The notes beneath the pieces were generated by a model. It made no database searches, had not been told where the DNA came from, and saw only the letters and a list, made by a program, of their open reading frames with translations. From the sequence record PZ445431.1: a DNA stretch of 64,000 bases. One strand, 5' to 3'. Both the position numbers and the translations under genes were made by a program. Positions 1-50,580 of this stretch are shown here, one piece after another; position 1 is the first letter of the stretch; each line of letters opens with the position of its first letter. The stretch is from a phage.

Positions 1-419
1 TGAGCGTGAATGATTTCATCACGAGGGATACCAGCACGTTCCAGAAGGTCATCAACGTTAGTAGTGAAGTTCTTCACGCTATCCGCACCATAACGCTGGA
101 ACCATTCTGCAATTCGCAGATGGGCAATGTTAGGCTCAACAGTCTGTAATTCCTGACGACGCATGTTGTAGAACTCATGAGTCTTGAGATACAGATCGTT
201 ACCATCTTTATCAATGCCAGGGAAACGAGCACTGAAGTAGTTAGGATCATCTTCACCACAGAAGCGACGGAAGCCAGCTTCAAAGTTAGGCAAGCTACAT
301 ACTTCCTCTAGATCGTACTCATCCCACAAGGATTTCCCACTAGCAGTATCAGTACGGAAAGCACGAACACCACTATCTACACTCAAACCTGCACCACTAA
401 CAACGATTAGTCTACGCAT
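1..419 (-). CDS. Sir2-like NAD-dependent deacetylase/ADP-ribosyltransferase family protein, partial (C-terminus beyond window start)
   Basis: Minus-strand frame from ATG at 419-417 translates MRRLIVVSGAGLSVDSGVRAFRTD..., i.e. the sirtuin N-terminal GAG[IL]S..SG..FR motif; stop of upstream gene overlaps the ATG (TAATG); not in ORF track because truncated. Confidence 0.55.
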   Translation of the reverse strand, partial: MRRLIVVSGAGLSVDSGVRAFRTDTASGKSLWDEYDLEEVCSLPNFEAGFRRFCGEDDPNYFSARFPGIDKDGNDLYLKTHEFYNMRRQELQTVEPNIAHLRIAEWFQRYGADSVKNFTTNVDDLLERAGIPRDEIIHA

Positions 420-7480: not shown

Positions 7481-8626
7481 ATGACAACTTTACTTAACTT
7501 AAACTGGGATCATACCAATAAAGATCTATTTCTCGGTGATTCTCTTGGTATTGCAGATTATGTACGAGTAGCTCATCCAGAGCTAGAAAGGCTGGCGTTA
7601 TTAGCTCGCTCTCAATTCTGGACTGAAACTGAAATCAGTCTGGAAGCTGATAAGAAACAATGGCCAAACCTTCCGCGTGATATTCAGGAAATTACTCTCC
7701 TGAACTTAGCATGGCAGACCCAAACAGATTCTTTCATTAGCCGTGCTCCTGAAGCAGCTATTATGCCGCTTGTAAGCCGTCCTGAATTGGAGGGTATGCT
7801 CAAGCAGTGGAGCTACTTCGAAGATCTGCATAGCCGTGCATATAGTAACATTATTCGTAACGTTCTGACTGATCCAGCAGAATTTATTGATTCTGTAACT
7901 AAAAACCAAGAAGCATTTGCACGTATCGCAGATTCTGTTGAACTGTTTGATGAATTGTATCTGTTAGGTCAGTATTTCCTTGCAGTACGTGATCATCGTG
8001 GTGATAATACTTATCCAGAAACTGAGTTCCCTGAAGTTAAACGTGAAACTCAGGCTAAGCTGTTAGATGCTTACTTTGCAATCTACGGTCTGGAAGCAAT
8101 GCAGTTCTACGCATCCTTTGCATGTACCTTTGCTCTAGCAGAGAACGATATTCTGCAAGGTATTGCCAAGAACCTGCAACTAATCGCTAAAGATGAAGCT
8201 CTACATACTCAAATGTCTAAAGCTATCATCCAGATTATGTTCCAGCAGTTTGATAAAGATCTGGTAGACGAAGCATTAGCTAAAGCACCAGCACAACTCC
8301 TAAAAACTCTGAAAACTGAGATTGAATGGGGCCACTTTATCTTTAAAGGCCGCAGTCTGATTGGTTTGAACGCAGAATTGCTTGAAGAATACCTTTACTT
8401 TGTAGGACGTAACGCATTTATGCACATTGGTGTAGAATGGCCAAGCCACTTACCTGTAATTACTAAGAACCCTATTCCGTGGATTATGAACTGGCTGGAT
8501 ACTACTTCCTTACAGCCTGCCCCACAAGAAATCCAGATTGGTGCAGCATATCGTGTGGGTCAGGTAACTGAAACTTCTGCTGATACCCTGAAAGATCTGG
8601 GTAACGAATTTGAGGGCATGTTCTAA
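7481..8626 (+). CDS. nrdB: ribonucleoside-diphosphate reductase small subunit (class Ia)
   Basis: 381 aa, di-iron RNR small-subunit layout, directly downstream of nrdA. Confidence 0.85.
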   Translation: MTTLLNLNWDHTNKDLFLGDSLGIADYVRVAHPELERLALLARSQFWTETEISLEADKKQWPNLPRDIQEITLLNLAWQTQTDSFISRAPEAAIMPLVSRPELEGMLKQWSYFEDLHSRAYSNIIRNVLTDPAEFIDSVTKNQEAFARIADSVELFDELYLLGQYFLAVRDHRGDNTYPETEFPEVKRETQAKLLDAYFAIYGLEAMQFYASFACTFALAENDILQGIAKNLQLIAKDEALHTQMSKAIIQIMFQQFDKDLVDEALAKAPAQLLKTLKTEIEWGHFIFKGRSLIGLNAELLEEYLYFVGRNAFMHIGVEWPSHLPVITKNPIPWIMNWLDTTSLQPAPQEIQIGAAYRVGQVTETSADTLKDLGNEFEGMF

Positions 8627-9156
8627 TGATAGCAGCAATCTATGCAACTGGGCCGAATGGGGAGTTCGGCCTCAATGGTAAGCTCCCCTGGGGTTCTTTC
8701 AAAGAAGAACTAGATATCTTCTATACTACTTTGGATTCTCTAGCACCTGATAATATTATTGTAGGTGCAGGAACTTGGTTAGCCTTCCCTGAGACTCTGC
8801 AAAAAAGAATACTAGGAGATTCTGACCTATTTATTTATGCAAATAGATCACTACCTAACTCTGTAGGATCAGCTACACGCATAAGCAACATTGGATACCG
8901 TCTGCCTGATTTTCTCAAGGAAGAGGTAACTGTAGTATTAGGGGGAGCAACTCTGCTTCTTGAAATGTATGTCAAAAATCATCTAGATATGGCGTATATC
9001 TCTACTATTACTTCAGCCACACCATTATCTGCTGATGTACATCTGCATCATCATATTACTTTAACTAATTCAATGGCAACTAGAATGGACTATGTGGCAG
9101 GACAGAATGCAGATAAAACGCTTTCATTCTTACAAGAATTGGTGATATTTAAATGA
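8626..9156 (+). CDS. frd: dihydrofolate reductase
   Basis: N-terminus [22 protein letters not shown] matches the DHFR signature; sits between nrdB and thymidylate synthase. Confidence 0.75.
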
Positions 9157-10007
9157 AGCAATATATTGAAACTGGAAAACGTATTCTTGAAGAGGGTGTA
9201 TGGGTAACGAATCCTAGAACAGGGGTTCGTTGCCTAACCATTATTGATGCAGACTTTACCTTTAACGTAGGAGCAGGAGAACTGCCGCTAGTAACTACTC
9301 GTAAAGCATTTGCTAAACAAGCAATAATGGAAATGATCGGATATCTCCGTGGGTACGACTCAGCAGCACAATTCCGCGCTATTGGTGTTAATACATGGAA
9401 TGCTAATGCAAATGAAAATATTGCCTGGCTAGGTAATCCATTCCGTAAAGGCGAGGATGATATGGGACGAGTCTATGGTGTTCAAGGACGTCATTGGACT
9501 AATTCTGATGGTATGGTATTTGATCAGTTAGCCAAAGTCTATCATAATTTGAAAAGAGGGATTGACGATCGTGGAGAAATTTTAACTTTTTGGAACCCTG
9601 GGGAATTTCGTAAAGGATGCCTACGTCCGTGTATGCATACCCATCAATTCTCTATTTTAGGTGATACACTATACCTAAACTCTTTCCAGAGGTCTAATGA
9701 TTTCTTGCTGGGCCAAGTATTTAATATGGTGCAATGCTATGCACTTCTAGCTATTATGGCACAGATTACAGGTCTTAAGCCAGGTATTGCTCGTCAAAAG
9801 ATTATTAATCTTCATATCTATGAAGATCAGTATAATGTTCTGATGGAGCACAAGCAATTCGATCGTGAACCTTTTGCACCTCCTACTTTAGAAATCAATC
9901 CAAATATTAGAACTTTGGATGATGTATTAACGTGGGTAAGTAAGGATGATTTTACTGTTCGTGGCTATGAACACCATCCTGCTATTGCATATCCATTTAC
10001 GGTGTAA
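9153..10007 (+). CDS. thyA: thymidylate synthase
   Basis: MKQY start, [14 protein letters not shown] (active-site Cys region), [24 protein letters not shown]; collinear with E. coli ThyA. Confidence 0.9.
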
Positions 10008-10462: not shown

Positions 10463-11041
10463 ATGACAGCCATAGTAGCATTTAAATATAAAGATAAAGT
10501 ATACTTAGCCGGTGATCGTATGGGTTCTAATGGCTATACGAAACTGCTGGTTAAAAATCCGAAAGTATTCAAAATCTCTGATGATTTGTGCTTCGGATAC
10601 ACTAGTTCCTTCTACATGGGACAATTACTAGAGCATAGCTTTACTGTACCACCACGTTTAGCAGATATTTCTGATGATAAATATTTATATACGGAAATAG
10701 TACCTAAATTACGTGATATGTTTAACCAGAAAGATTTTGGCGAAAAGAAAAATGAAAAATATGCTGAACCTAATCTGGGACAATTTATTATGCTCTACAA
10801 AGGAAGAATCTTTATTTTCCAATCTAATGCTTCTATTCTAGAAGTTGAATATGCCGGTGTAGGCTGTGGAGGAGAAGATGTACTTTCCAGTATTCGTACA
10901 GGTTTAGCTATTGCGGATTGTCGAGCCACAGATTTAGATGTAGATGATATATTTGAAATCATTGATCTGGCTTTTACGCATTGTGCAGATTATATGTGTG
11001 GTGTATCTTCTCAACATGATATTTTAGTAATTGGAGAATAA
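10463..11041 (+). CDS. putative Ntn-hydrolase, HslV/proteasome-beta-like peptidase
   Basis: N-terminal MTAIVAFKYKDKVYLAGD (Thr2 after Met, as in HslV TTIVSVRR..V.IAGDGQ) and later YAGVGCGGEDV resembling the HslV GSGG motif; similarity judged by eye. Confidence 0.4.
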   Translation: MTAIVAFKYKDKVYLAGDRMGSNGYTKLLVKNPKVFKISDDLCFGYTSSFYMGQLLEHSFTVPPRLADISDDKYLYTEIVPKLRDMFNQKDFGEKKNEKYAEPNLGQFIMLYKGRIFIFQSNASILEVEYAGVGCGGEDVLSSIRTGLAIADCRATDLDVDDIFEIIDLAFTHCADYMCGVSSQHDILVIGE

Positions 11042-13304: not shown

Positions 13305-14006
13305 ATGAAATTCAAGCCCTTTGGTATGCTGGACATTGAATCTCTAGGTACTCCAGGAAATTGCGGTACTACTCATATTGCAATGCCTTCTTTCGCTTTT
13401 GTAGCGATGCACGGAATTGATAAAGATCCTGATCTGGTATTCGTTACTCTAGACGTTCAAGATCAGCTTAATGCGGGTGCTAAGGTAACTGCCTCTACTA
13501 TTGCATTCTGGATGGATCAAGCTAAAAACAGTCCATCTGCGCTCCATATTATGGAGGCTCTAAATGGTCGTAATCCTAAACTGATTGCCTTCCGTGATGG
13601 TAAGCATCACTGCACTAATGACGTAGGCTCTAATTATGCTGCCTTCTCTATGGCTCAGAACATTATGGAATTGTCTCTAGGAGATAATGCTCTGTATTAC
13701 GGCAATGGCCCAGAGTTTGATATGACTATCTACTCTGCAAATACGTTCCATGCCGGAACCCATGAAGAAGTAGTTCCGTGGAAATTCTGGAACTTAGGTA
13801 ATGTTCGATCTTTCCGTAATCAATGGATGCAAGCTGGTTATAGTTATAAAGATCTAGAAGCCGAAGGTGCTAGCTGGGCAAAAGCTAAAATGGAAAAGAT
13901 GGATACCATTCGTTATGGAATCTATCCAGTTAAACATGATCCAGCATTCGATGCTTTAGTTGAAAGTTATTGTGTAGCCATCATGATCGAAAAAATCAAA
14001 ATTTGA
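13305..14006 (+). CDS. putative DEDDh-type 3'-5' exonuclease-like protein
   Basis: Exo I-like MLDIESLG near N-terminus and C-terminal H-x4-D (KHDPAFD); weak, motif-only. Confidence 0.35.
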   Translation: MKFKPFGMLDIESLGTPGNCGTTHIAMPSFAFVAMHGIDKDPDLVFVTLDVQDQLNAGAKVTASTIAFWMDQAKNSPSALHIMEALNGRNPKLIAFRDGKHHCTNDVGSNYAAFSMAQNIMELSLGDNALYYGNGPEFDMTIYSANTFHAGTHEEVVPWKFWNLGNVRSFRNQWMQAGYSYKDLEAEGASWAKAKMEKMDTIRYGIYPVKHDPAFDALVESYCVAIMIEKIKI

Positions 14007-15336: not shown

Positions 15337-15365
15337 TTGCTAATTAGTTTAGTTTTCTATATAAT
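15337..15365 (+). promoter_or_regulatory. T5-type early promoter
   Basis: TTGCTA 15337-15342, TATAAT 15360-15365. Confidence 0.65.
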
Positions 15366-15395
15366 ATATTTTTAAATTGATGAGACGAGGCTATT

Positions 15396-15713
15396 ATGAT
15401 TTTTCATATTCTGATTGATGATGTGCGTAACCTTCATGGAATGGACATTATCATTCGAACCCCCGAAGCCGCTGTTGAGTTTCTGAATAAAACCGATACC
15501 ACAGGTCATTTCGTTTATATGGATAACGATCTGGCTGTAGATGGTATGGAAGGTTATCAAATTCTTCGTTTACTCCTAGAATTTGGTCAGAGACCCAAGA
15601 AAGTGGTACTAGTAACCTCGAACCCAGTAGCTAAAGAGACCATGCGTAATGATCTCTTAGACGAAGGGTATCAAGAAAGCCCTAATCGTATTGAGTACGA
15701 TTGGCCGGAGTAA
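15396..15713 (+). CDS. putative stand-alone CheY-like receiver (REC) domain protein
   Basis: ILIDD near N-terminus, YMDNDLAVDGMEGYQIL (acidic pocket/phospho-acceptor region resembling CheY DWNMPNMDG), LVTSN and a following Lys; shorter than canonical REC. Confidence 0.35.
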   Translation: MIFHILIDDVRNLHGMDIIIRTPEAAVEFLNKTDTTGHFVYMDNDLAVDGMEGYQILRLLLEFGQRPKKVVLVTSNPVAKETMRNDLLDEGYQESPNRIEYDWPE

Positions 15714-16168
15714 ATAAAATGAAGGCAGCTTTGCTTTTAATAGCTGCCCTAACCTATAGCTTCAATAGTCATGCGACCTACGACTCAAAGCAGATTGATT
15801 GCATTGCAAAAAATATCTACTTCGAAGCACGAGGTGAGGGCACTAAAGGAATGATCGCAGTTGCACAGGTTACTAAAAACCGTGTTAACTCTGGTACTTT
15901 TCCTAATTCTTACTGTAAAGTAGTATATCAGTCTAACCAGTTCTCTTGGGTGGCCAAGAGACCAAAAGTTGATAAAACCGATGAGGCTTGGCAAGTTGCT
16001 AAGAATTTAGCTAGAGTGATATACTACGTTGATTTACCACAAGATCCAACACATGGAGCGTTATACTTCCATAGTGGTAAAGATAAACCGTACTGGACAA
16101 AGAAGTTTAAGAAAACAACGAAGATTCAAGGCCATACGTTCTACAAGCCTGTGGTTAAGAAAACTTAA
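15701..16168 (+). CDS. secreted SleB-like cell-wall hydrolase (Hydrolase_2 family)
   Basis: Signal peptide MKAALLLIAALTYSFNSHA and the NIYFEARGEG...AVAQVTKNR signature; start probably ATG near 15719. Confidence 0.7.
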   Translation: MAGVNKMKAALLLIAALTYSFNSHATYDSKQIDCIAKNIYFEARGEGTKGMIAVAQVTKNRVNSGTFPNSYCKVVYQSNQFSWVAKRPKVDKTDEAWQVAKNLARVIYYVDLPQDPTHGALYFHSGKDKPYWTKKFKKTTKIQGHTFYKPVVKKT

Positions 16169-16236: not shown

Positions 16237-16407
16237 ATGAAATCAGTTGTAATTATTGGTGTTAATACTCGTGGTATCCGTACTACGAAAACAGTTAAAA
16301 CTACTAACGTTGCTGAAATTACTACAAACCCTAAGAAGTTTGATTTCGCTAAAGTCTCGGCAGTTATGACAGAACAATCTTTTAACCAAGCACTGGGAAT
16401 TAAATAA
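16237..16407 (+). CDS. hypothetical small protein (56 aa)
   Basis: Not in ORF track (<60 aa); sits exactly behind the conserved promoter/leader ...AATTAATGAGAGGAAGCGAAATATG and is coupled (TAATG) to the next gene. Confidence 0.5.
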   Translation: MKSVVIIGVNTRGIRTTKTVKTTNVAEITTNPKKFDFAKVSAVMTEQSFNQALGIK

Positions 16408-16850
16408 TGGAAGAGAATATTCTAGATGTTTTGCGTAGGGCTTTGCAGGAATCTAAGGTTGATGGTTCTGATAAAGAAGTAGCTAAAAGCTACCAGACCA
16501 TAATCGGAGATCTTCAGCGTGTTGATAAAGACTTCATTACTTCTGAACAGTTTGTATCTTATATAAAAGCTCAACTGAAAAGCATTAATCAGACGAAAGC
16601 TAAACTTCACGGTCAAGACCTTGATAATTATAGCTTGCAGTCTGCTCAGTATGAGTATATACTGAACAAATGGCTACAACAGTATCTGCCGCCTCAGTTA
16701 TCTGATTCTGAGATTCGCAAATACTTTGCAGAATTAGTTAAGTTGAACCCTGGGATTACAAAAGGTATGCTGATGAAAGCGATTAAGGAAGAGTTTCCTG
16801 GTCGTTACGACGGTGGCATTGCTGCTCAGGTTGCTGGCGAATTTAATTAA
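16407..16850 (+). CDS. GatB/YqeY-domain protein
   Basis: C-terminal GMLMKAIKEEFPGRYDGGIAAQVA resembles YqeY; 147 aa. Confidence 0.6.
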   Translation: MEENILDVLRRALQESKVDGSDKEVAKSYQTIIGDLQRVDKDFITSEQFVSYIKAQLKSINQTKAKLHGQDLDNYSLQSAQYEYILNKWLQQYLPPQLSDSEIRKYFAELVKLNPGITKGMLMKAIKEEFPGRYDGGIAAQVAGEFN

Positions 16851-16858
16851 AAATTGAT

Positions 16859-16887
16859 TTGCTAAACGCCTCAAAATTCTGTATAAT
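16859..16887 (+). promoter_or_regulatory. T5-type early promoter driving an ORF-free segment
   Basis: TTGCTA 16859-16864, TATAAT 16882-16887. Confidence 0.7.
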
Positions 16888-17770
16888 AGATTCATAAATT
16901 AGAGAACAGCGAGCCGATTACGCTGAGTGAGTTTAGTGATTCCTACTAGGATAGCTATTCCACTGAATAGAGTCGGTGAGTTTAGAATGATCACCTGTTA
17001 GAGTTCCGAGTCCAGTCCGGTATATCCGGCCAAGTGACTAGAGTAACGAATATAGGTTCGAGACTTCTTGTAAAACTCGGGAGCTGTCCCGAAATCTCGT
17101 AAACTCTTCTCTAGTTTATGTTAGTGGGGTGTCGAACTGACTTATGTGATAACACTGCCGTCCTAGTATAAACGGTAATATCAAACCGTAACTGGTGGAA
17201 GATGCAGGTTCGAATCCTGCGGTCGGAAAGAATCAGATAACTCGGGCTTATACCGGATAAGCATTCGCTGCTGGAGTACATACTATGACGGTTCAGGAGG
17301 TACGCCACCTGATCAGTATTAGGTTAGAATCGAAACAGCTAAACCACGAGGAAACCTGACGGCCTCAACCAAACTCGGAACTCGGGATCACTGCCTAGTG
17401 TGTGCCCCGTTTAACCTGAGACTAGGCATCCAGCTTCGCATCGAAAATCGGAGGTGCGATTCTAACAGACCGCGTGAATATGAGAGTGGGAAACGCTGAC
17501 ATGAGAGATGTCACTAATGGTGCCCAATAGTACAGGTAATTCGCGATAATTCCTGTTGAGCGGCAGCAGTAGGCTGGGAGTCATGACCTAAGCCTAACCG
17601 AGTTCTTCACATACGGAGAACATAACCACAAAGTCACCCTGACTTAAACTGGAAGATATTGTCTGACGGAAGGGCTGCAGAGCTTAATCTGAGGGGGCTG
17701 ACCCTACCTACCATCGGGTATCTTTAAGAGCTTTTTCGAGAGTTCTTAAAAATACCTAACAAAAGGAATC
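16888..17770 (+). ncRNA. candidate structured non-coding RNA region (no ORF >=60 aa on the sense strand)
   Basis: About 0.88 kb directly downstream of consensus promoter 16859-16887; contains tRNA-like T-arm GCAGGTTCGAATCCTGC (17204-17220) without a pairing acceptor stem and several short hairpins. Confidence 0.35.
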
Positions 17771-17773
17771 AAT

Positions 17774-18283
17774 ATGAATCTAGGAACAACTTGTATCTTT
17801 GATCATCAAGAAATGTGTTGCCCTCGTATTCTGCATATAGCACATTTCTCTGAACGATTGACACTTGATCAAGCTCGCGAGAAAATGAGTGAGATTACAG
17901 GATATAATTTTCGAGAAGGTGAATACTTTAGCGTAGCTTTGGATTACATCGACAATACTCGTCTTTATCACCTAGTTCAGCTTGGTGAAGAAACTGATGA
18001 AGTAAAAATGGCGAAAGATACATTACGTCGTTATCGCCCGCAGATTCTAGAGAGTACACTTCGCGGAGAGCCTAGTGATTACTTCTATATGCGCTGTTAT
18101 GACGCAGATGCACAAGAATACATGGCACATCAACGTTTCTACCACGATATTAAAGAGTTCGTTAATATCAAGTATGACAAGCTATTGATTGACTCTAAAG
18201 CACAACGTGCAGCTAAAAATGCTGAGAAATCTGCTAAAGAAGCTGTTGAAAGTCAAACTAAATTGAATAAAGTCATTAAATGA
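17774..18283 (+). CDS. hypothetical protein (169 aa)
   Basis: ORF with AAAAGGAA RBS. Confidence 0.55.
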   Translation: MNLGTTCIFDHQEMCCPRILHIAHFSERLTLDQAREKMSEITGYNFREGEYFSVALDYIDNTRLYHLVQLGEETDEVKMAKDTLRRYRPQILESTLRGEPSDYFYMRCYDADAQEYMAHQRFYHDIKEFVNIKYDKLLIDSKAQRAAKNAEKSAKEAVESQTKLNKVIK

Positions 18284-18604: not shown

Positions 18605-19549
18605 ATGTTTACTAAAAACACTAAAGAACTGACTTCCGATCAAAAAGTAATTCGTACTATTAAACGTTGGGGCGTTGGTGCTGTAGTTGGTCTTGGCGCT
18701 CTTATTCTGGCTCTCAATTCCTATACAGTTGTTCAGGACGGTACGGTTAAAACTCAGACTTTCCTGGGTAAAGTTAGTCCTAATCCTGTATTGCCGGGGT
18801 TCCATATTGTCAACCCATTCGCCTCTTTTGATACTTTTAGTACGAAAGATATTTCTATGAAACTGGATAAACTTCAGGTTCCTAGCCAGGATAAGTTTAA
18901 GTCCACTGTTGACATTACCGTTATGTTGCAGTTTGATGGTGCTAAAGCTCCTATGAACCGTGTTAACGCAGGTACTCAGGATCAAGCTCTGAACAAGTAC
19001 GTTGAAGAGAAGATGCTATCTACGATTCGTGAGTTTGGTAAGTCTGTACCAAAAGCACAAGATCTGTTCGACGCTAAGATTCAGGCTCAACTGCAAACTG
19101 CTATTCAGCAAGAAGTAGAAGAGTACGCGCGTCCTTATGGTTACACGGTTAAGCAAGTATTCCTTCAGGATATTACTCTGCCACCTGTAATCATGGAACA
19201 GGTACAAAACACAAAAGTTCGTGAAGAACAAGTTAACGCCGCTAAAGCTGAATTGGCTCGTGTTGAACAAGAAGCACAGCAGAAAGTTAAGCAAGCTGAA
19301 GCTGATCGTTCTGCTCGTGAAAACATGGCAGTAGCTAACGAACGTGACGCAGATGCTAAACTGTACGCAGCTAAGAAAGAAGCTGAAGCTAACGCCGCGC
19401 TGCAACGTACCATTACTCCTGAAATGATTCGTTGGAAGCAGCTGGAAGTTGAAATGCTTCGTGCTGAAAAATACCAAGGTGGTGTACCGCAGACTGTTGT
19501 TGGTACTGGCTACGATGGTCAAATGATCATGGATATGCGTAACAAGTAA
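18605..19549 (+). CDS. SPFH/band-7 (prohibitin/HflKC-like) membrane protein
   Basis: N-terminal TM helix, then VVQDGTVK...LPGFHIVNPF SPFH core and long Ala/Glu/Gln-rich coiled-coil tail. Confidence 0.7.
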   Translation: MFTKNTKELTSDQKVIRTIKRWGVGAVVGLGALILALNSYTVVQDGTVKTQTFLGKVSPNPVLPGFHIVNPFASFDTFSTKDISMKLDKLQVPSQDKFKSTVDITVMLQFDGAKAPMNRVNAGTQDQALNKYVEEKMLSTIREFGKSVPKAQDLFDAKIQAQLQTAIQQEVEEYARPYGYTVKQVFLQDITLPPVIMEQVQNTKVREEQVNAAKAELARVEQEAQQKVKQAEADRSARENMAVANERDADAKLYAAKKEAEANAALQRTITPEMIRWKQLEVEMLRAEKYQGGVPQTVVGTGYDGQMIMDMRNK

Positions 19550-19811: not shown

Positions 19812-20867
19812 ATGATTAAGACTGGTCTAGTAATTGGTAAGTTCGCACCATTAACACGTGGTCATATTAACCTAATAAACACAGCAGCAACTATGTGTGA
19901 ACGAGTTATAGTTGTAGTTAGTCATGATAATCGCTGGCTGGATAAACAAAACACACGTGATCAGGAAGTCTTACAGTTAAAGAACCGACTTCGTTGGTTA
20001 GAACAAACTTACGCGGATATTGAGCACATTTCGGTAGAGTACATTATTGAAGATGATATTCCTGAATATCCGAATGGTTGGCCGGAATATGCTAGAATAC
20101 TTAATGAAAATTATGGACATTTGCCTGAGATCACCATTTTCTCTAGCGAACTAGACTATGATGCAGAATATAAGAAATATCTGCCGAAGTTTGGTCATTA
20201 TATTGTAGATTCTGATCGGACTCGTGTTCCAATCTCAGCTACAATGATTCGTAATGATCTTATGAAGTATTGGGAGTTTCTTCCTAGCGTAGTTCGTAAA
20301 GATTACGTGCGTAAGGTTGTAATCATTGGGACTGAAAGCTCGGGAAAGACTACTTTAACAAAATACCTTGCGAAGCTATACAACACTTCGTGGGTAGAAG
20401 AATATGGTCGAACGTATTGTGAAGTTGATCTAGTTGGTAACGAAAATCTGCTTACCAGCGAAGATTATAGTAAAATTGCGTTCAGACACAAAGAGCTAGA
20501 GTTTGAAGCAGAACGTACTGCAAATAAGATCATGTTTGTGGATACAAATGCTTTTATTACTGAGTTCTACCACAGACTTTATGAACATAGTAAGAATCCT
20601 GTGGTTACAGCAATTGCAAAAGAAGAACATTATGATTTAGTAATTGTTCTAGCGCCTACTGTCAAGTGGGTAGATGATGGTTTACGTATTAACTCCGATC
20701 GTTCAATTACTTCTGAACTGTTCGAGCAGATGAAGAAAGAATTTCCAAATCAGTTCCCTGAAGGGCGTACTGTTTACATCGACTCTCCGGACTACAAAGT
20801 TCGTATGGACGAAGCAGTAAACGCAGTAGACTGGCTGATTCATCACTTTAACGTTGGAGAGTTTTAA
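19812..20867 (+). CDS. nadR: NadR-like bifunctional NMN adenylyltransferase / ribosylnicotinamide kinase (no HTH domain)
   Basis: GKFAPLTRGHINLI nucleotidyltransferase motif and VVIIGTESSGKTTLTKYLAKLYNTSWVEEYGR P-loop closely matching NadR; start ATG 19812 after conserved leader GAGAGAGGAATCAAAT. Confidence 0.8.
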   Translation: MIKTGLVIGKFAPLTRGHINLINTAATMCERVIVVVSHDNRWLDKQNTRDQEVLQLKNRLRWLEQTYADIEHISVEYIIEDDIPEYPNGWPEYARILNENYGHLPEITIFSSELDYDAEYKKYLPKFGHYIVDSDRTRVPISATMIRNDLMKYWEFLPSVVRKDYVRKVVIIGTESSGKTTLTKYLAKLYNTSWVEEYGRTYCEVDLVGNENLLTSEDYSKIAFRHKELEFEAERTANKIMFVDTNAFITEFYHRLYEHSKNPVVTAIAKEEHYDLVIVLAPTVKWVDDGLRINSDRSITSELFEQMKKEFPNQFPEGRTVYIDSPDYKVRMDEAVNAVDWLIHHFNVGEF

Positions 20868-20868
20868 T

Positions 20869-21546
20869 ATGACTAACTATCTCGTAAATGACTTTAAAAA
20901 CTGGAAACCTCTGGAATATCTGTGGCTGTTCATAGCGGTTGTCTTCATTAGTTTAGCAAACTATAATGGTACAGCTCTAGATTGGGCTACTGCAATAACC
21001 AATGTGGTTTGTGTTATTCTGGTTGCAAAAGGACGTGTTTCCAACTATATTTGGGGCTTAGTGGGTGTTCTTACATATGGTATTACAGCTTTAAACGCAG
21101 ATCTTTATGGTAACGCTGCACTAAACCTGCTATACTACGTTCCTATGCAGTTTTATGGAATGTACTTATGGCATAAAAATAAGCCAAGTAATCTGCCGGA
21201 TGTTCCAACTAAGGTTCTGACTAAAGCCCAAGCTCTGCTGACTCTAGGGATTCTAGCAGTAGCCACGTTAGGGTATGGTAGTTTCTTAGCTACTACGGCT
21301 GATCCATTTCCAATGTTGGATGCATTTACTGCGGTAGGTAGTGTGATCGCTATGTGGCTTATGGTTAAGCAGTATGCCGAGCAGTGGCTGATCTGGATTG
21401 CTATTAACATTGGTACTGTGTACATTTGGCTTGTAACTGCTCAATCTACAGGTGCATCTTATGCAATCCTAGCAATGTGGCTAGTATTCTTAGGTAACTC
21501 TATTATGGGAGCCTATAAAGGATACTTTGTACGCGTTAACAAATAA
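20869..21546 (+). CDS. pnuC: PnuC-family nicotinamide riboside transporter
   Basis: Multi-TM 226 aa protein with Trp-rich PnuC-like helices, immediately downstream of the nadR-like gene. Confidence 0.7.
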   Translation: MTNYLVNDFKNWKPLEYLWLFIAVVFISLANYNGTALDWATAITNVVCVILVAKGRVSNYIWGLVGVLTYGITALNADLYGNAALNLLYYVPMQFYGMYLWHKNKPSNLPDVPTKVLTKAQALLTLGILAVATLGYGSFLATTADPFPMLDAFTAVGSVIAMWLMVKQYAEQWLIWIAINIGTVYIWLVTAQSTGASYAILAMWLVFLGNSIMGAYKGYFVRVNK

Positions 21547-37381: not shown

Positions 37382-38038
37382 GTGGAAAAGTTTATACAAC
37401 TATTAACGATACTGCTACAAGAAGCGAAAGATCCAGCTTCACTACTAAAACGTCTGCTAACTATCTTAGTTGCTGTCATTATTTTCTTGTTTGTAAGTAA
37501 CACTAGCGAGGTGATGTCATTTTTAAAGACTTTCTCCACGTCTTCGGTTTTACAGGATGTTCAAACCCAAAGGATAGATAACTTTCCTAATGTAGCACGA
37601 GAAAAGAGTATGGTTCTTTTCTCCCAGACTGGTGCGGATGCCGTTTTTGTAGTAAAGTATAAACCAGATGCTATAAATGATTATTCAAACATTATTGCAT
37701 GGGAAAGCAATGCGCAATTGGATAGGGCTGACTTGGCCGATAAAGCAGTAAATAAGACGTCTGAACTTTATAGACGTCACCTGGAAGGCTTTAACTACGC
37801 TGCGGATTTAAGTGTAAAAGTAAATAAATATACGGGGTCAAATATACCAGCGTTTAAGAACATTACTTTTAATTACGTCTACACTTGTCCATATTTCAAC
37901 CTAAATAATATCTATGCTGGATACATAGGTATTGCATGGAAGGATAAACCCGTAGATACAGCTGATTCGGAACAATTTAATGAGTACTTAGCAAAGCTCT
38001 GTTCCCCACAACGGAGATCATTAGGTAGATCTATATGA
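37382..38038 (+). CDS. holin (T5-type, large)
   Basis: GTG start after AGAGGAGG; N-terminal TM helix; immediately upstream of and overlapping the endolysin gene. Confidence 0.6.
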   Translation: MEKFIQLLTILLQEAKDPASLLKRLLTILVAVIIFLFVSNTSEVMSFLKTFSTSSVLQDVQTQRIDNFPNVAREKSMVLFSQTGADAVFVVKYKPDAINDYSNIIAWESNAQLDRADLADKAVNKTSELYRRHLEGFNYAADLSVKVNKYTGSNIPAFKNITFNYVYTCPYFNLNNIYAGYIGIAWKDKPVDTADSEQFNEYLAKLCSPQRRSLGRSI

Positions 38039-38448
38039 GTTTTAAATTTGGTAAAAATAGCGAAAAACAATTAGCAACTGTTAAGCCCGAGCTACAGAAG
38101 GTAGCTCGTAGGGCTTTAGAATTATCTCCATATGATTTCATAATCGTACAGGGTATTCGTACAGTAGCACAAAGTGCCCAAAACATTGCTAATGGTACTT
38201 CATTTTTGAAAGACCCTAGCAAGAGTAAGCATGTAACTGGAGACGCTATCGATTTTGCACCATATATTAATGGAAAGATTGATTGGAAAGATCTGGAAGC
38301 ATTTTGGGCTGTTAAGAAGGCTTTTGAACAAGCCGGTAAGGAACTTGGTGTCAAACTTCGTTTTGGTGCCGACTGGAATAGTTCTGGTGATTATCATGAT
38401 GAGATCGATCGTGGTACTTACGACGGTGGTCACGTAGAATTAGTCTGA
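38035..38448 (+). CDS. lys: endolysin, L-alanyl-D-glutamate peptidase (M15 family)
   Basis: 137 aa with SKHVTGDAIDF and DGGHVEL zinc-binding motifs; size and motifs match T5 endolysin. Confidence 0.85.
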   Translation: MSFKFGKNSEKQLATVKPELQKVARRALELSPYDFIIVQGIRTVAQSAQNIANGTSFLKDPSKSKHVTGDAIDFAPYINGKIDWKDLEAFWAVKKAFEQAGKELGVKLRFGADWNSSGDYHDEIDRGTYDGGHVELV

Positions 38449-48715: not shown

Positions 48716-49436
48716 TTTACGTAGTGAAATTAATAAAAACCTAAGAGAGGAAGCCAGGAGGTTTCCTCTCAAAAACTTTTTAAAGTCAAACGGTTCTACT
48801 AATATTACAAAGATTAGGCAGCTTCATCCAGACTTCCAACAAGAGGCATTAAATCTTATCTTTATTAAGAAAGCATTGAAAGTCCAAAAGGAAGAGTATG
48901 GGTATGAAAGAGTTAACTATAAAACAGCTACTCAATTAGTAGAGATTTGGTGTTACAAACATCAAGGCTATTTTATGCAAACAGCTAGATCCCATCTAGA
49001 AGGGCACGGTTGTTTACAATGTGCTAGAGAAAGCAATCTCAATACACCTATCGAGAAACCGGAAATAGATGAGGATGTTCAGTTTCCCACCTATCTCTAT
49101 ATCTTCTCTAATAAGGATCAGTCTAGGAAGAAATTAAAGACGAAGATTGGAGTTTCTAGAGAGCCACATCAAAGGTTTAAGAATCTAGAATATGATAAAC
49201 TGCGTGTGCCGGGTTTCGAAGATATGGAAGTATTTGGTATATATCAGTATAAGAAAGGATCTAAAGAACTTGCTTATAAAATGGAACATCAAGCACATAA
49301 ATTTTTCGAGAGCAGATTTGCTAATCATTATAAATTCGATGGAGCAAAAGAGATATTCAACGTTAAGGCTGTGGAGGCAGAAGAATATTTATTAAGTCAA
49401 GGATGCATAAAAATTTACCCAACTCCAAACTCATGA
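48708..49436 (+). CDS. putative GIY-YIG/T5orf172-like endonuclease with His/Cys zinc-binding module (paralogue of 46168..46686)
   Basis: N-terminal block shared with 46168 (HPDFQQEALNLIFI, QTARSHLEGHGCLQCA) plus C-terminal YLYIFSNKDQSRKKLKTKIGVSREPHQRFKNL GIY-YIG-like segment. Confidence 0.5.
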   Translation: MDDLRSEINKNLREEARRFPLKNFLKSNGSTNITKIRQLHPDFQQEALNLIFIKKALKVQKEEYGYERVNYKTATQLVEIWCYKHQGYFMQTARSHLEGHGCLQCARESNLNTPIEKPEIDEDVQFPTYLYIFSNKDQSRKKLKTKIGVSREPHQRFKNLEYDKLRVPGFEDMEVFGIYQYKKGSKELAYKMEHQAHKFFESRFANHYKFDGAKEIFNVKAVEAEEYLLSQGCIKIYPTPNS

Positions 49437-49463
49437 TAAAAATTTAAAAGTAACGAAATCTGC

Positions 49464-49493
49464 TTGACATTCGTGAGAATAATGTGTTATAAT
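49464..49493 (+). promoter_or_regulatory. near-consensus sigma70 promoter (TTGACA-N17/18-TATAAT) with no ORF downstream
   Basis: TTGACA at 49464-49469, TTATAAT at 49487-49493; differs from the TTGCTT early promoter class. Confidence 0.5.
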
Positions 49494-49779
49494 AATCTCA
49501 TAGATTAAAAACATCAACTTGTTTTTACCTCTAGGCCGTAGATTTACATCATTCCTCGTAGGAAAACACTTGATGACGGTTCTGCTTGCAGGTTCTCGTC
49601 AATTGTTCTTCCTCCCCGAGACTCAGGAGGATGTATCAAATCGCGCGCGCCTAGAGGGGCTAACTCTCATGAAATGGGGGTATATTAACTTTTAAATAAC
49701 TAAAAATATTTAAAGGCAATATTTATGTTCAAGATGATACACCTGTTGCCGCTCATCTGCTAGGATGGCACAACACTTT

Positions 49780-49960
49780 CTTCTAGGCTCCTAAGTTTCT
49801 AGGAATAGTTAAGCACTAACTCTAGAGTTTACACTAAACTTTAAATCTGTTTCTCACACATTCTAGGGCAGTTTCTCTCCAACGTTACATATCCTAGGGC
49901 GGTTTCCTATACAGGGCGGTTATAGGGAGGGCGGTTATTTCTAGGAGACATTTTTTGAAA
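49780..49960. repeat. short direct repeats (TTTCTAGG x4-5, GGGCGGTT x3)
   Basis: CTTCTAGG, TTTCTAGG, CTAGGGCGGTT, CAGGGCGGTT, GGGAGGGCGGTT read directly. Confidence 0.8.
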
Positions 49961-49979
49961 ACACATTTCTGGAAATTAC

Positions 49980-50580
49980 TGTCGGATTTGCACATTACAT
50001 TTCTAGAAATTTATGGTCGGATTTGCACATTGATAGGAGTCTCCAAAGTTTTTAGGAACACTGAAAATAGCAGCATTATTTCGGGCCGAAGGCCCATATT
50101 TGCCTGAGTTTTTAGAGCCACAGGAATTTTCACTTGTCAAGCGATTTTGCCCCATTTTGCTAATAAAATTTCGCTTTATCTCCCCTAATCTCAATTCTAG
50201 CCAAAACATCCCGCATTATCCTCAAAAATGCAGCAAACCGGTGCTAAAGCACCATCACCGCTGCTCCTTCCGTAGTTCCTCCCAAAATCTCATCGGATTC
50301 GCACTTCTCCCCAAACTCACACAATCACACACCCTCTCATCGAAGTCACAAAAATCTTGTCGGATTTGCACACCTTAACACTTGTCGGATTTGCACATAC
50401 TCTAGTAAACCCAGCTGGATTGCATCGCAGTTGCGGATTGCTGGAGTTTTTAGGAAAATTCATTGTCGGATTTGCACACTATAAAAATTTTTCGGGTAGG
50501 ATTTGCACATTACCAAAAATTGTCGGATTCGCACATACACGCCAGCACGTAACCCATGGAGCAAATGTCGGATTTGCACA
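49980..50580. repeat. iteron array: about 9 direct copies of TGTCGGATTTGCACA (minor variants)
   Basis: Copies at about 49980, 50016, 50291, 50359, 50383, 50464, 50496, 50521, 50566, all same orientation, irregular spacing. Confidence 0.9.

What the first reader, a model, noticed from the sequence alone, without database searches (positions are those of the whole stretch)
15396..15713. Stand-alone CheY-like receiver domain in a virulent phage
ILIDD, YMDNDLAVDGMEGYQIL, LVTSN and a following Lys resemble the receiver-domain acidic pocket, phospho-acceptor Asp, Thr/Ser and Lys. A single-domain receiver with no output domain and no partner kinase could act as a phosphate sink or decoy interfering with host two-component signalling.
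Basis: inference. Interest (0 to 1): 0.5.

Follow-up and report, generated by a model that had tools for sequence, protein, structure and literature searches.

The report
Trimmed receiver-fold (cREC) protein of T5-like phage
The gene is real and encodes a small, cut-down relative of bacterial receiver domains. It belongs to an already named but never tested phage family (cREC, Pfam PF20274) that is predicted to be a phosphate-cleaving enzyme for RNA/NAD-based conflicts, not a decoy for host two-component signalling.

Summary
The window is Escherichia phage TrudiRoth (Bas30, T5-like). ORF 15396-15713 (+) is a genuine 105-aa early gene, bas30_0077, the orthologue of T5.084. It has its own sigma-70-like promoter and a ribosome-binding site.

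The fold is trimmed: helices alpha1 and alpha5 are missing. The "following Lys" (K80) is not the canonical lysine, which is absent.

The family adds invariant R11, R21, D45 (Asp+2) and N76 (Thr+2). Nearly all members are about 100 aa and stand alone.

In phage rV5 a cREC gene sits between an RNA ligase and a Sir2. TrudiRoth carries the same Sir2 type, an RNA-repair HAD phosphatase and NAD salvage genes, but none is adjacent to cREC.

The best reading is a small phosphoesterase acting on cyclic phosphates, which is untested. The phosphate-sink idea is unlikely. The family is known and of modest interest.

The parts
15337..15365 (+). Sigma-70-like promoter, TTGCTA-17 nt-TATAAT (10 of 12 matches), about 30 nt upstream of the start codon
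   Evidence: The consensus scan found it. The T5 record annotates a promoter in the equivalent position, directly upstream of T5.084. Function is inferred, not shown.
15387..15390 (+). Shine-Dalgarno-like GAGG, five bases before the ATG
   Evidence: Read directly from the sequence.
15396..15713 (+). cREC gene: 105 aa, bas30_0077, orthologue of T5.084 / YP_006912.1
   Evidence: ORF list. Pfam PF20274 at 55.3 bits. Identical to TrudiRoth record positions 65387-65704. T5 orthologue. AF2 model with pLDDT 93.7.
15417..15428 (+). Codons for D8, D9 (acidic pair at the end of strand 1) and R11 (family-specific Arg)
   Evidence: Kept in 210, 209 and 203 of 213 family members. The model's secondary structure places them just after strand 4-7.
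15456..15458 (+). Codon for R21, a family-specific invariant Arg just after strand 2
   Evidence: Kept in 210 of 213. It is Lys in rV5 gp079.
15522..15530 (+). Codons for D43-N44-D45, the DxD motif at the end of strand 3. D43 is equivalent to CheY D57 and D45 to the D+2 position (CheY N59).
   Evidence: hhalign against CheY. D43 is kept in 212 and D45 in 211 of 213.
15615..15623 (+). Codons for T74-S75-N76 at the end of strand 4. T74 is equivalent to CheY T87 and N76 to the T+2 position (CheY E89).
   Evidence: hhalign. T74 is Thr in 168 and Ser in 44; N76 is kept in 210 of 213.
15719..16168 (+). Downstream gene starting 6 nt after the cREC stop: SleB-like cell wall hydrolase with a signal-peptide-like N-terminus. 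Probably co-transcribed. No functional link to cREC is shown.
   Evidence: Pfam Hydrolase_2 at 92.4 bits. Annotated start in the record. The same order is seen in T5, T5.084 then T5.083.
1..419 (-). 5' part of the Sir2-like gene (bas30_0054; the rest lies left of the window), about 15 kb from cREC. A possible genome-level partner by inference only.
   Evidence: Record annotation. Pfam SIR2 at 77.7 bits. It is 47% identical (E 8e-92) to rV5 gp080, the Sir2 that sits next to the rV5 cREC. A HAD_SAK_2 gene lies three genes beyond it, outside the window.
19812..21546 (+). NadR-like NMN adenylyltransferase/kinase and PnuC NMN transporter (NAD+ salvage), 4-6 kb downstream. Thematic context only.
   Evidence: Pfam CTP_transf_like plus AAA_28, and NMN_transporter at 148 bits. 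This pair is absent at the corresponding place in T5.

Best explanation
SHOWN.
- The ORF is an expressed-looking early gene of a T5-like phage.
- It encodes a member of the cREC family (PF20274).
- The predicted fold is a minimal receiver: strand 1, a loop in place of helix alpha1, strand 2, helix, strand 3, helix, strand 4, helix, strand 5, then a short extra strand in place of alpha5.
- The receiver acidic pocket (D8, D9), the acceptor-equivalent Asp (D43) and the Thr/Ser (T74) are kept. The canonical Lys is lost.
- Four further near-invariant residues are added: R11, R21, D45 (two residues after D43) and N76 (two residues after T74).

INFERRED.
- The protein is a small phosphoesterase, not a signalling switch.
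- D43 would attack a phosphate ester. D45 would act as the general acid/base, as the Asp+2 of the DxD motif does in HAD phosphatases.
- N76 would position the hydrolytic water, and R11/R21 would hold the phosphate in place of the missing Lys.
- Following the family's describers, the likely substrates are cyclic phosphates: 2',3'-cyclic phosphate RNA ends left by host anticodon or toxin RNases, or ADP-ribose 1'',2''-cyclic phosphate made during NAD+-dependent removal of 2'-phosphates.
- In this phage it would act early and in trans, with the genome's Sir2, its 'Swiss-army-knife' HAD phosphatase and its NAD+ salvage genes. The role would be to heal damaged RNA ends, including those of its 24 tRNAs, or to destroy an ADP-ribose-derived product.
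- No phage RNA ligase was found, so any rejoining would have to use a host ligase.
For: - Family membership: Pfam 55.3 bits against a cutoff of 27. Sources already name close homologues 'cyclic-phosphate processing receiver domain-containing protein'.
- Residues: conservation over 213 sequences and equivalences to CheY. The same DD-x-R, DxDLG, EG and TSNP signature occurs in rV5 gp079.
- Architecture: 406 clusters at 50% identity, nearly all about 100 aa and stand-alone. No kinase or output domain appeared among the longer members that I scanned.
- Close context elsewhere: the rV5 cREC sits between an RnlA-like RNA ligase and Sir2, flanked by a P-loop kinase, a Metallophos protein and a gene the record annotates as a nucleotide pyrophosphohydrolase (no Pfam hit). 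A prophage-like contig has cREC with WYL and SIR2 genes.
- Looser context elsewhere: other contigs carry an isochorismatase and HAD_SAK_2, an AAA_33 kinase, Metallophos, or NAD kinase within 6 kb.
- Same genome: Sir2 47% identical to the rV5 one, HAD_SAK_2, NadR/PnuC and an Rv2179c-like exoribonuclease, and 24 annotated tRNA genes.
- Literature: the prediction and its rationale are in PMC7824862 and PMC9503650.
Against: - No cREC protein has been tested. PMC9503650 says so, and only two computational papers in the library mention the domain.
- In T5-like phages the gene is not adjacent to any NAD or RNA-repair gene. Its operon partner is a secreted cell-wall hydrolase.
- Sir2 is about 15 kb away. 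It persists in a Klebsiella T5-like phage with no cREC at that locus or anywhere in the 40 kb examined around Sir2.
- NadR/PnuC are missing at this place in T5.
- Most of the ten metagenomic or phage contexts sampled show only small unknown genes nearby.
- No rV5-type RNA ligase, kinase or MazG homologue is detectable in TrudiRoth.
- The catalytic roles of D45, N76, R11 and R21 are my inference by analogy. I could not inspect model coordinates.
- The describers call the site metal-independent. The retained DD pair, which binds Mg2+ in classical receivers, leaves this open.
Confidence: 0.45

Rival explanations
1. The protein is a phospho-acceptor that drains phosphoryl groups from host histidine kinases or acetyl phosphate, or a decoy that binds them. 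Either way it would blunt host two-component signalling early in infection.
For: - The acidic pair, the acceptor-equivalent Asp and the Thr/Ser are all retained and conserved.
- The fold is receiver-like.
- The gene is expressed from a strong early-type promoter.
- From general knowledge, single-domain receivers acting as phosphate sinks exist in bacteria.
Against: - Helix alpha1, the main kinase-docking element from established structural knowledge of kinase-regulator complexes, is replaced by a 10-residue loop. Alpha5 is also missing.
- The K109 equivalent is absent.
- There is no Response_reg match.
- The describers report that the family is never linked to histidine kinases.
- The same signature occurs in a cREC embedded in an RNA-ligase/Sir2 cluster.
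- Strict invariance of the D+2 and T+2 positions is atypical for receivers, where these positions vary (general knowledge).
Confidence: 0.1
2. The protein is a non-catalytic binder, either a sponge or a sensor. It would sequester a nucleotide-derived immune signal such as a cyclic ADP-ribose isomer or a cyclic nucleotide, or sense a phosphorylated ligand, using the receiver pocket as a binding site without turnover.
For: - The protein is small (about 100 aa), stand-alone and made early, as known phage signal sponges are (general knowledge).
- Two invariant Arg plus acidic residues could form a phosphate/ribose-binding pocket.
- It associates with WYL and SIR2 genes in one element.
Against: - The full set of catalytic-type residues is conserved, including the nucleophile-equivalent Asp and the DxD arrangement. 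That fits chemistry better than binding alone.
- There is no evidence of the oligomeric pockets typical of known sponges.
- I made no direct test.
Confidence: 0.2
3. The protein is a pseudo-receiver adaptor. It would work through protein-protein contacts, for example regulating the co-transcribed secreted cell-wall hydrolase or a host factor, with the pocket residues kept for structure or allosteric control.
For: - Linkage with the SleB-like hydrolase gene is tight (6 nt apart) and conserved across T5-like phages.
- From general knowledge, receiver folds are frequent interaction modules.
Against: - The hydrolase has a signal-peptide-like N-terminus, so the two products would be in different compartments.
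- The Klebsiella T5-like phage keeps the hydrolase without cREC.
- cREC homologues in Vibrio phages, rV5 and the metagenomic contigs have other neighbours.
- Near-invariance of seven polar pocket residues across very distant members argues for a common small-molecule chemistry.
Confidence: 0.15

Closest known systems
cREC, the cyclic-phosphate processing Receiver domain (Pfam PF20274; Iyer et al. 2021, PMC7824862; Iyer et al. 2022, PMC9503650). Examples: T5.084, KVP40.0304, rV5 gp079.
   Same: - It passes the Pfam threshold.
- It has the same length and stand-alone architecture as the rest of the family.
- It shares the DD-x-R, DxDLG, G and [T/S]SNP signature with rV5 gp079.
- It comes from a phage.
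   Different: In T5-like phages the gene is not next to NAD+/ADP-ribose or RNA-ligase genes, as it is in the neighbourhoods that defined the family. Sir2 and HAD_SAK_2 are about 15 kb away, and no RNA ligase was detected.
Classical two-component receiver domains (CheY, Spo0F; Pfam PF00072 Response_reg)
   Same: - Flavodoxin-like fold; the best PDB matches are all receivers.
- The acidic pair, acceptor-equivalent Asp and Thr/Ser are at the equivalent strand ends.
   Different: - Helices alpha1 and alpha5 are missing.
- There is no conserved Lys at the K109 position.
- The D+2 position is invariantly Asp and the T+2 position invariantly Asn, and there are two extra invariant Arg.
- There is no PF00072 hit and no kinase partner.
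HAD-superfamily phosphatases (DxDx[T/V] motif), including the 'Swiss-army-knife' HAD RNA-repair phosphatase encoded in the same genome
   Same: This is a resemblance in how it may work, not membership. Both have a nucleophile Asp with a second Asp two residues later, a Thr/Ser and a basic residue around a phosphate site on a Rossmann-like sheet. The likeness of HAD and CheY active sites is established knowledge, recalled from memory.
   Different: The fold topology differs and the DxD motif follows a different strand (strand 3 here, strand 1 in HAD). There is no sequence relationship, and no activity has been shown.
2H phosphoesterases (LigT/CPDase type), the known enzymes that open 2',3'-cyclic and ADP-ribose 1'',2''-cyclic phosphates
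   Same: The describers predict the same substrates and the same place in RNA-end healing.
   Different: The fold and catalytic residues are unrelated: two His-x-Thr/Ser motifs in 2H against Asp-based chemistry here. 2H activity is demonstrated experimentally, and cREC activity is not.

Membership tests
cREC (Pfam PF20274) | Scores above the curated Pfam gathering threshold | tested here: met
   55.3 bits against a cutoff of 27, E 1.1e-14, covering model positions 2-86 of 88.
cREC (Pfam PF20274) | Divergent receiver fold that keeps the catalytic aspartates | tested here: met
cREC (Pfam PF20274) | Never combined with histidine kinases or classical output domains; mostly stand-alone or fused to Nudix | tested here: met
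   The protein is 105 aa with a single domain. No kinase is annotated in the genome. Of the 150 best cluster representatives, nearly all are about 100 aa, and the longer ones that I scanned show only cREC, plus HNH in one case.
cREC (Pfam PF20274) | Conserved gene-neighbourhood link to NAD+/ADP-ribose-processing or RNA-end-repair genes | tested here: inconclusive
   The link is confirmed in rV5 (RNA ligase, cREC, Sir2) and in one WYL/SIR2 element. At this locus the neighbours are unrelated. Sir2 and HAD_SAK_2 lie about 15 kb away and NadR/PnuC 4-6 kb away.
cREC (Pfam PF20274) | Hydrolysis of cyclic phosphates (the activity that gives the family its name) | not testable with these tools
   This is a prediction only. 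The family is stated to be experimentally uncharacterised in PMC9503650, and no experimental paper was found.
Classical receiver domain (CheY-like, PF00072) | Five-stranded (beta-alpha)5 fold with all five helices | tested here: not met
   The model has strands at 4-7, 18-20, 39-42, 69-72 and 93-94 and helices only at 23-32, 53-62 and 77-90. There is no alpha1 or alpha5.
Classical receiver domain (CheY-like, PF00072) | Acidic pair, phospho-acceptor Asp and Thr/Ser at the ends of strands 1, 3 and 4 | tested here: met
   D8/D9, D43 and T74; alignment to CheY and conservation.
Classical receiver domain (CheY-like, PF00072) | Conserved Lys at the end of strand 5 (CheY K109) | tested here: not met
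The equivalent position is S95, which is variable in the family (N 48, K 29, S 16 of 213).
Classical receiver domain (CheY-like, PF00072) | Recognised by the Response_reg profile | tested here: not met
   Only cREC_REC and a chance PalB_C hit were returned at E up to 10. CheY scores E = 1.4 in the PDB sequence search. hhalign against a single CheY sequence gives probability 3.4%.
Classical receiver domain (CheY-like, PF00072) | Phosphotransfer from a cognate histidine kinase or Hpt protein | not testable with these tools
   No kinase is encoded by the phage. The loss of alpha1 makes canonical docking unlikely, which is an inference.

The most novel reading that the evidence does not exclude
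cREC is a genuine enzyme built on a receiver scaffold that has acquired a HAD-like Asp-x-Asp catalytic pair. In T5-like phages it would work in trans with the phage Sir2 and 'Swiss-army-knife' HAD phosphatase as a ligase-less RNA end-healing pathway. That pathway would hand cleaned tRNA halves to a host ligase such as RtcB, or would destroy ADP-ribose cyclic-phosphate products. Either way it would protect the phage's own large tRNA set from host anticodon nucleases and NAD-based immunity.
Probability: 0.15. Interest if true: 0.6.

Novelty: already known. Interest (0 to 1): 0.3.

Why it matters
Experimental confirmation of the predicted activity would give the first catalytic, non-signalling use of the receiver fold. 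It would also add an enzyme to the list of phage counter-measures against RNA-cleaving and NAD-consuming bacterial immunity.

The T5-like orthologue is a convenient test case. The protein is 105 aa, the host is E. coli K-12, and the phages come from a model collection. As a sequence finding it adds nothing new: the family is named in Pfam and the close homologues already carry that name.

Tried and rejected
- Sequence search of the PDB gave only chance hits to designed beta-trefoil proteins; CheY scored E = 1.4.
- NCBIfam returned nothing.
- The first word-indexed protein search returned only close T5-like homologues. A profile search was needed to reach further.
- The search for related loci with the diverse alignment failed because no stretch was conserved enough. 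No systematic viral-contig neighbourhood survey was therefore done, and I sampled ten contigs instead. Most showed only small unknown genes.
- tblastn with a second, divergent cREC member found the same phage groups and did not reach the rV5-type members. I located the rV5 cREC by reading the rV5 annotation and scanning gp079.
- The apparent fusions turned out uninformative. P0086 is an HNH homing endonuclease joined to cREC, and the other longer proteins show no second domain.
- T5 'ORF079' (55 aa) looked like a truncated T5 copy. It is an alternative annotation: the RefSeq T5 record has the intact 105-aa T5.084.
- A search for rV5-type RNA ligase, kinase, MazG or Metallophos homologues in TrudiRoth found none.
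- Literature searches for T5.084 and for T5 transcriptomics gave nothing relevant. The 2022 paper has no supplement held as text.
- I considered a mis-called or non-coding ORF and rejected it, given the conservation, the promoter and RBS, and the confident fold.

Full report
**What the window is.** The 5.5 kb around the finding is 100% identical to Escherichia phage TrudiRoth (Bas30, MZ501109.1; Demerecviridae, Epseptimavirus), a T5-like virulent phage. Window position equals record position minus 49,991.

**The observation.**
- ORF 15396-15713 (+) encodes 105 aa: MIFHILIDDVRNLHGMDIIIRTPEAAVEFLNKTDTTGHFVYMDNDLAVDGMEGYQILRLLLEFGQRPKKVVLVTSNPVAKETMRNDLLDEGYQESPNRIEYDWPE.
- It is annotated as hypothetical protein bas30_0077. 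Its T5 orthologue is T5.084 (YP_006912.1), noted there as 'similar to KVP40.0304'.
- GAGG lies five bases before the ATG.
- A TTGCTA-17-TATAAT site lies at 15337-15365. The T5 record annotates a promoter at the equivalent place.
- tblastn finds the protein in 494 phage records. Most are Salmonella/Escherichia T5-like phages at 88-100% identity. A few T5-like phages (Ace, YZU-L1) carry an allele about 56% identical, and 50 large Vibrio phages carry one about 37% identical.

**Family.**
- Pfam gives PF20274, cREC_REC ('Cyclic-phosphate processing Receiver domain'), at 55.3 bits against a gathering score of 27.
- PHROGs gives phrog_1479, function unknown. NCBIfam gives nothing.
- No Response_reg hit was returned, and CheY reaches only E = 1.4 in a PDB sequence search.
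- UniRef and NCBI already name close homologues 'cyclic-phosphate processing receiver domain-containing protein'.
- A profile search of 1.84 billion representatives finds 406 clusters at E <= 0.001. Almost all are about 100 aa and stand-alone.
- The few longer members that I scanned have no informative second domain. One is joined to an HNH homing endonuclease.

**Structure.**
- With a 65-sequence alignment, AlphaFold2 gives pLDDT 93.7 and pTM 0.86.
- Secondary structure runs as follows: strand 4-7, loop 8-17, strand 18-20, helix 23-32, strand 39-42, helix 53-62, strand 69-72, helix 77-90, short strands 93-94 and 100-102.
- Compared with the classical (beta-alpha)5 receiver, helices alpha1 and alpha5 are missing.
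- Foldseek agrees weakly, with best E 3.7e-3 and query-normalised TM-score 0.55-0.58.
- The fold therefore belongs to the receiver superfamily but is clearly divergent.

**Residues.** hhalign of the family alignment against CheY gives these equivalences:

| This protein | CheY | Note |
|---|---|---|
| D43 | D57 | phospho-acceptor position |
| D45 | N59 | D+2 position |
| G53 | G65 | |
| T74 | T87 | |
| N76 | E89 | T+2 position |
| Y92 | Y106 | |
| S95 | K109 | canonical Lys position |

Conservation over 213 family members:

| Position | Count |
|---|---|
| D8 | 210 |
| D9 | 209 |
| R11 | 203 |
| D17 | 185 |
| R21 | 210 |
| D43 | 212 |
| D45 | 211 |
| G53 | 211 |
| P67 | 202 |
| T74 | 168 Thr, 44 Ser |
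| N76 | 210 |

- Position 95, the K109 equivalent, is variable.
It lies in the first turn of helix 4 and aligns with CheY K91/K92.

**Literature.**
- cREC was defined computationally by Iyer et al. 2021 (PMC7824862) and revisited in 2022 (PMC9503650).
- They describe a divergent receiver that is never found with histidine kinases. It is linked to NAD+/ADP-ribose-processing genes, RNA ligases and WYL regulators, and often fused to Nudix.
- They predict that it opens 2',3'-cyclic phosphates on RNA or ADP-ribose 1'',2''-cyclic phosphate.
- The 2022 paper states that the domain remains experimentally uncharacterised.
- Only these two papers in the library mention the domain.

**Independent check of the context claim.**
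- In phage rV5 the 116-aa gp079 is a cREC (52.3 bits).
- It lies between an RnlA-like RNA ligase (gp078) and Sir2 (gp080). A P-loop kinase (gp077) and a Metallophos protein (gp076) lie upstream. A gene annotated as a nucleotide pyrophosphohydrolase (gp081, no Pfam hit) lies downstream.
- gp079 carries the same signature as the T5-like protein: WLDDFRD, DNDLGE..EGYD and HTSNP.
- A prophage-like contig has cREC near WYL and SIR2 genes.
- Other sampled contigs have the following within 6 kb: NAD kinase and Acb3; Metallophos and SprT; isochorismatase and HAD_SAK_2; or an AAA_33 kinase.
- Several contigs show only small unknown genes.

**Context at this locus.**
- Upstream lie an Rv2179c-like 3'-5' exoribonuclease (13305-14006) and two unknown genes.
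- Downstream, 6 nt after the stop, lies a SleB-like cell-wall hydrolase with a signal-peptide-like N-terminus (15719-16168).
- Then come DUF7616, a YqeY-like protein, a stretch homologous to the T5 'RNAX' stable RNA, tRNA-Arg, an SPFH protein, NadR-like and PnuC genes (19812-21546), and the tRNA array of 24 annotated tRNAs.
- None of the immediate neighbours is an NAD or RNA-repair enzyme.
- About 15 kb to the left, straddling the window edge, lies a Sir2 gene 47% identical to rV5 gp080. A HAD_SAK_2 'Swiss-army-knife' RNA-repair phosphatase gene lies beside it. This is the sirtuin-HAD pairing that the 2022 paper describes for phage SP15.
- No rV5-type RNA ligase, kinase or MazG homologue is detectable in TrudiRoth.
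- A Klebsiella T5-like phage keeps Sir2 and the SleB-like gene but has no cREC at the locus or within 40 kb.
- T5 lacks NadR/PnuC at this place.
- The Sir2 clade occurs in 979 phage records, including the same 50-record Vibrio group.
- cREC therefore looks like an accessory gene found in Sir2-bearing lineages, not an obligate partner of Sir2.

**Mechanism.**
- The best-supported reading is an enzyme and not a switch.
- Loss of alpha1, which from established knowledge is the main kinase-docking surface, argues against two-component signalling. So do the loss of alpha5 and of the canonical Lys, and the lack of any kinase association.
- The invariant Asp two residues after the acceptor-equivalent Asp recreates the Asp-x-Asp arrangement of HAD phosphatases. 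There the second Asp is the general acid/base needed when the leaving group is an alcohol.
- The invariant Asn at T+2 sits where, in classical receivers, a variable residue controls water access to the phosphoryl group (recalled knowledge).
- Two invariant Arg could replace the Lys in binding phosphate.
- These roles are my inferences. They fit the cyclic-phosphate phosphoesterase function predicted by the family's describers, but nothing has been measured.

**Verdict.**
- The 'CheY-like' label holds at superfamily level only.
- The proposed function is unlikely.
- The gene belongs to a family that is already described and named in Pfam and UniRef, so I rate novelty as 'already known'.
- I set interest at 0.3, because the family's chemistry is untested and this orthologue would be an easy system in which to test it.

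Noticed in passing
window 17157-17228 (+), within 16851-17770: A tRNA-like match (Rfam RF00005, 29.3 bits against a cutoff of 29) that ARAGORN does not call and the record does not annotate. It lies in a stretch homologous to the T5 'RNAX' stable RNA of unknown function, and the T-arm-like core (GGTTCGAATCC) is conserved between T5 and TrudiRoth. The 169-aa ORF 17774-18283 (no Pfam hit) is extra sequence relative to T5.
   Followed up: partly
window 15719-16168 (+): A SleB-like cell-wall hydrolase (Pfam Hydrolase_2, 92 bits) with a signal-peptide-like N-terminus (MKAALLLIAALTYSFNSHA). It starts 6 nt after the cREC stop. It is a second wall hydrolase besides the holin-linked endolysin at 38035-38448, and several records label it 'endolysin'.
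   Followed up: partly
window 13305-14006 (+) and 16407-16850 (+): These look like misleading annotations. The 'putative metallopeptidase' matches the Rv2179c-like 3'-5' exoribonuclease domain (32 bits, cutoff 27). The 'recombination-related exonuclease', called 'tRNA amidotransferase' in other records, matches only YqeY, at 25.6 bits, just under the cutoff of 27.
   Followed up: partly
window 1-419 (-) and TrudiRoth record 48740-50410 (left of the window): A Sir2 gene (47% identical to the cREC-linked Sir2 of phage rV5) lies near a HAD_SAK_2 'Swiss-army-knife' RNA-repair phosphatase gene and two DUF7415 genes. Together they form a module about 15 kb from the cREC gene.
   Followed up: yes
window 19812-21546 (+): A NadR-like NMN adenylyltransferase/ribosylnicotinamide kinase and a PnuC NMN transporter (NAD+ salvage) are present in this Epseptimavirus. 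T5 lacks them at the corresponding place and has a Toprim-like gene and three opposite-strand genes there instead.
   Followed up: partly
window 10463-11041 (+): A 192-aa protein matches the Proteasome subunit family (PF00227, 38 bits against a cutoff of 22.4), so it is an HslV/proteasome-like protein in a phage early region. The record annotates it as hypothetical.
   Followed up: no
L017 (Klebsiella phage vB_Kpn_K7_rec5, PQ569731) 7777-9307; phages Ace and YZU-L1 (hits H69, H70): The cREC slot varies among T5-like phages. In the Klebsiella phage the exonuclease gene is followed directly by the SleB-like gene with no cREC. Ace and YZU-L1 carry an allele only about 56% identical at the same position.
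   Followed up: partly
P0086 (273 aa, metagenomic); hit H71, phage JLBYU43: An HNH homing-endonuclease domain is fused to, or annotated together with, a T5-type cREC. This probably reflects a homing endonuclease inserted next to the gene and not a functional fusion.
   Followed up: no
window 18605-19549 (+): An SPFH/Band 7 family protein (70 bits) lies just after tRNA-Arg. The T5 record annotates its counterpart as a lipoprotein with one transmembrane segment.
   Followed up: no
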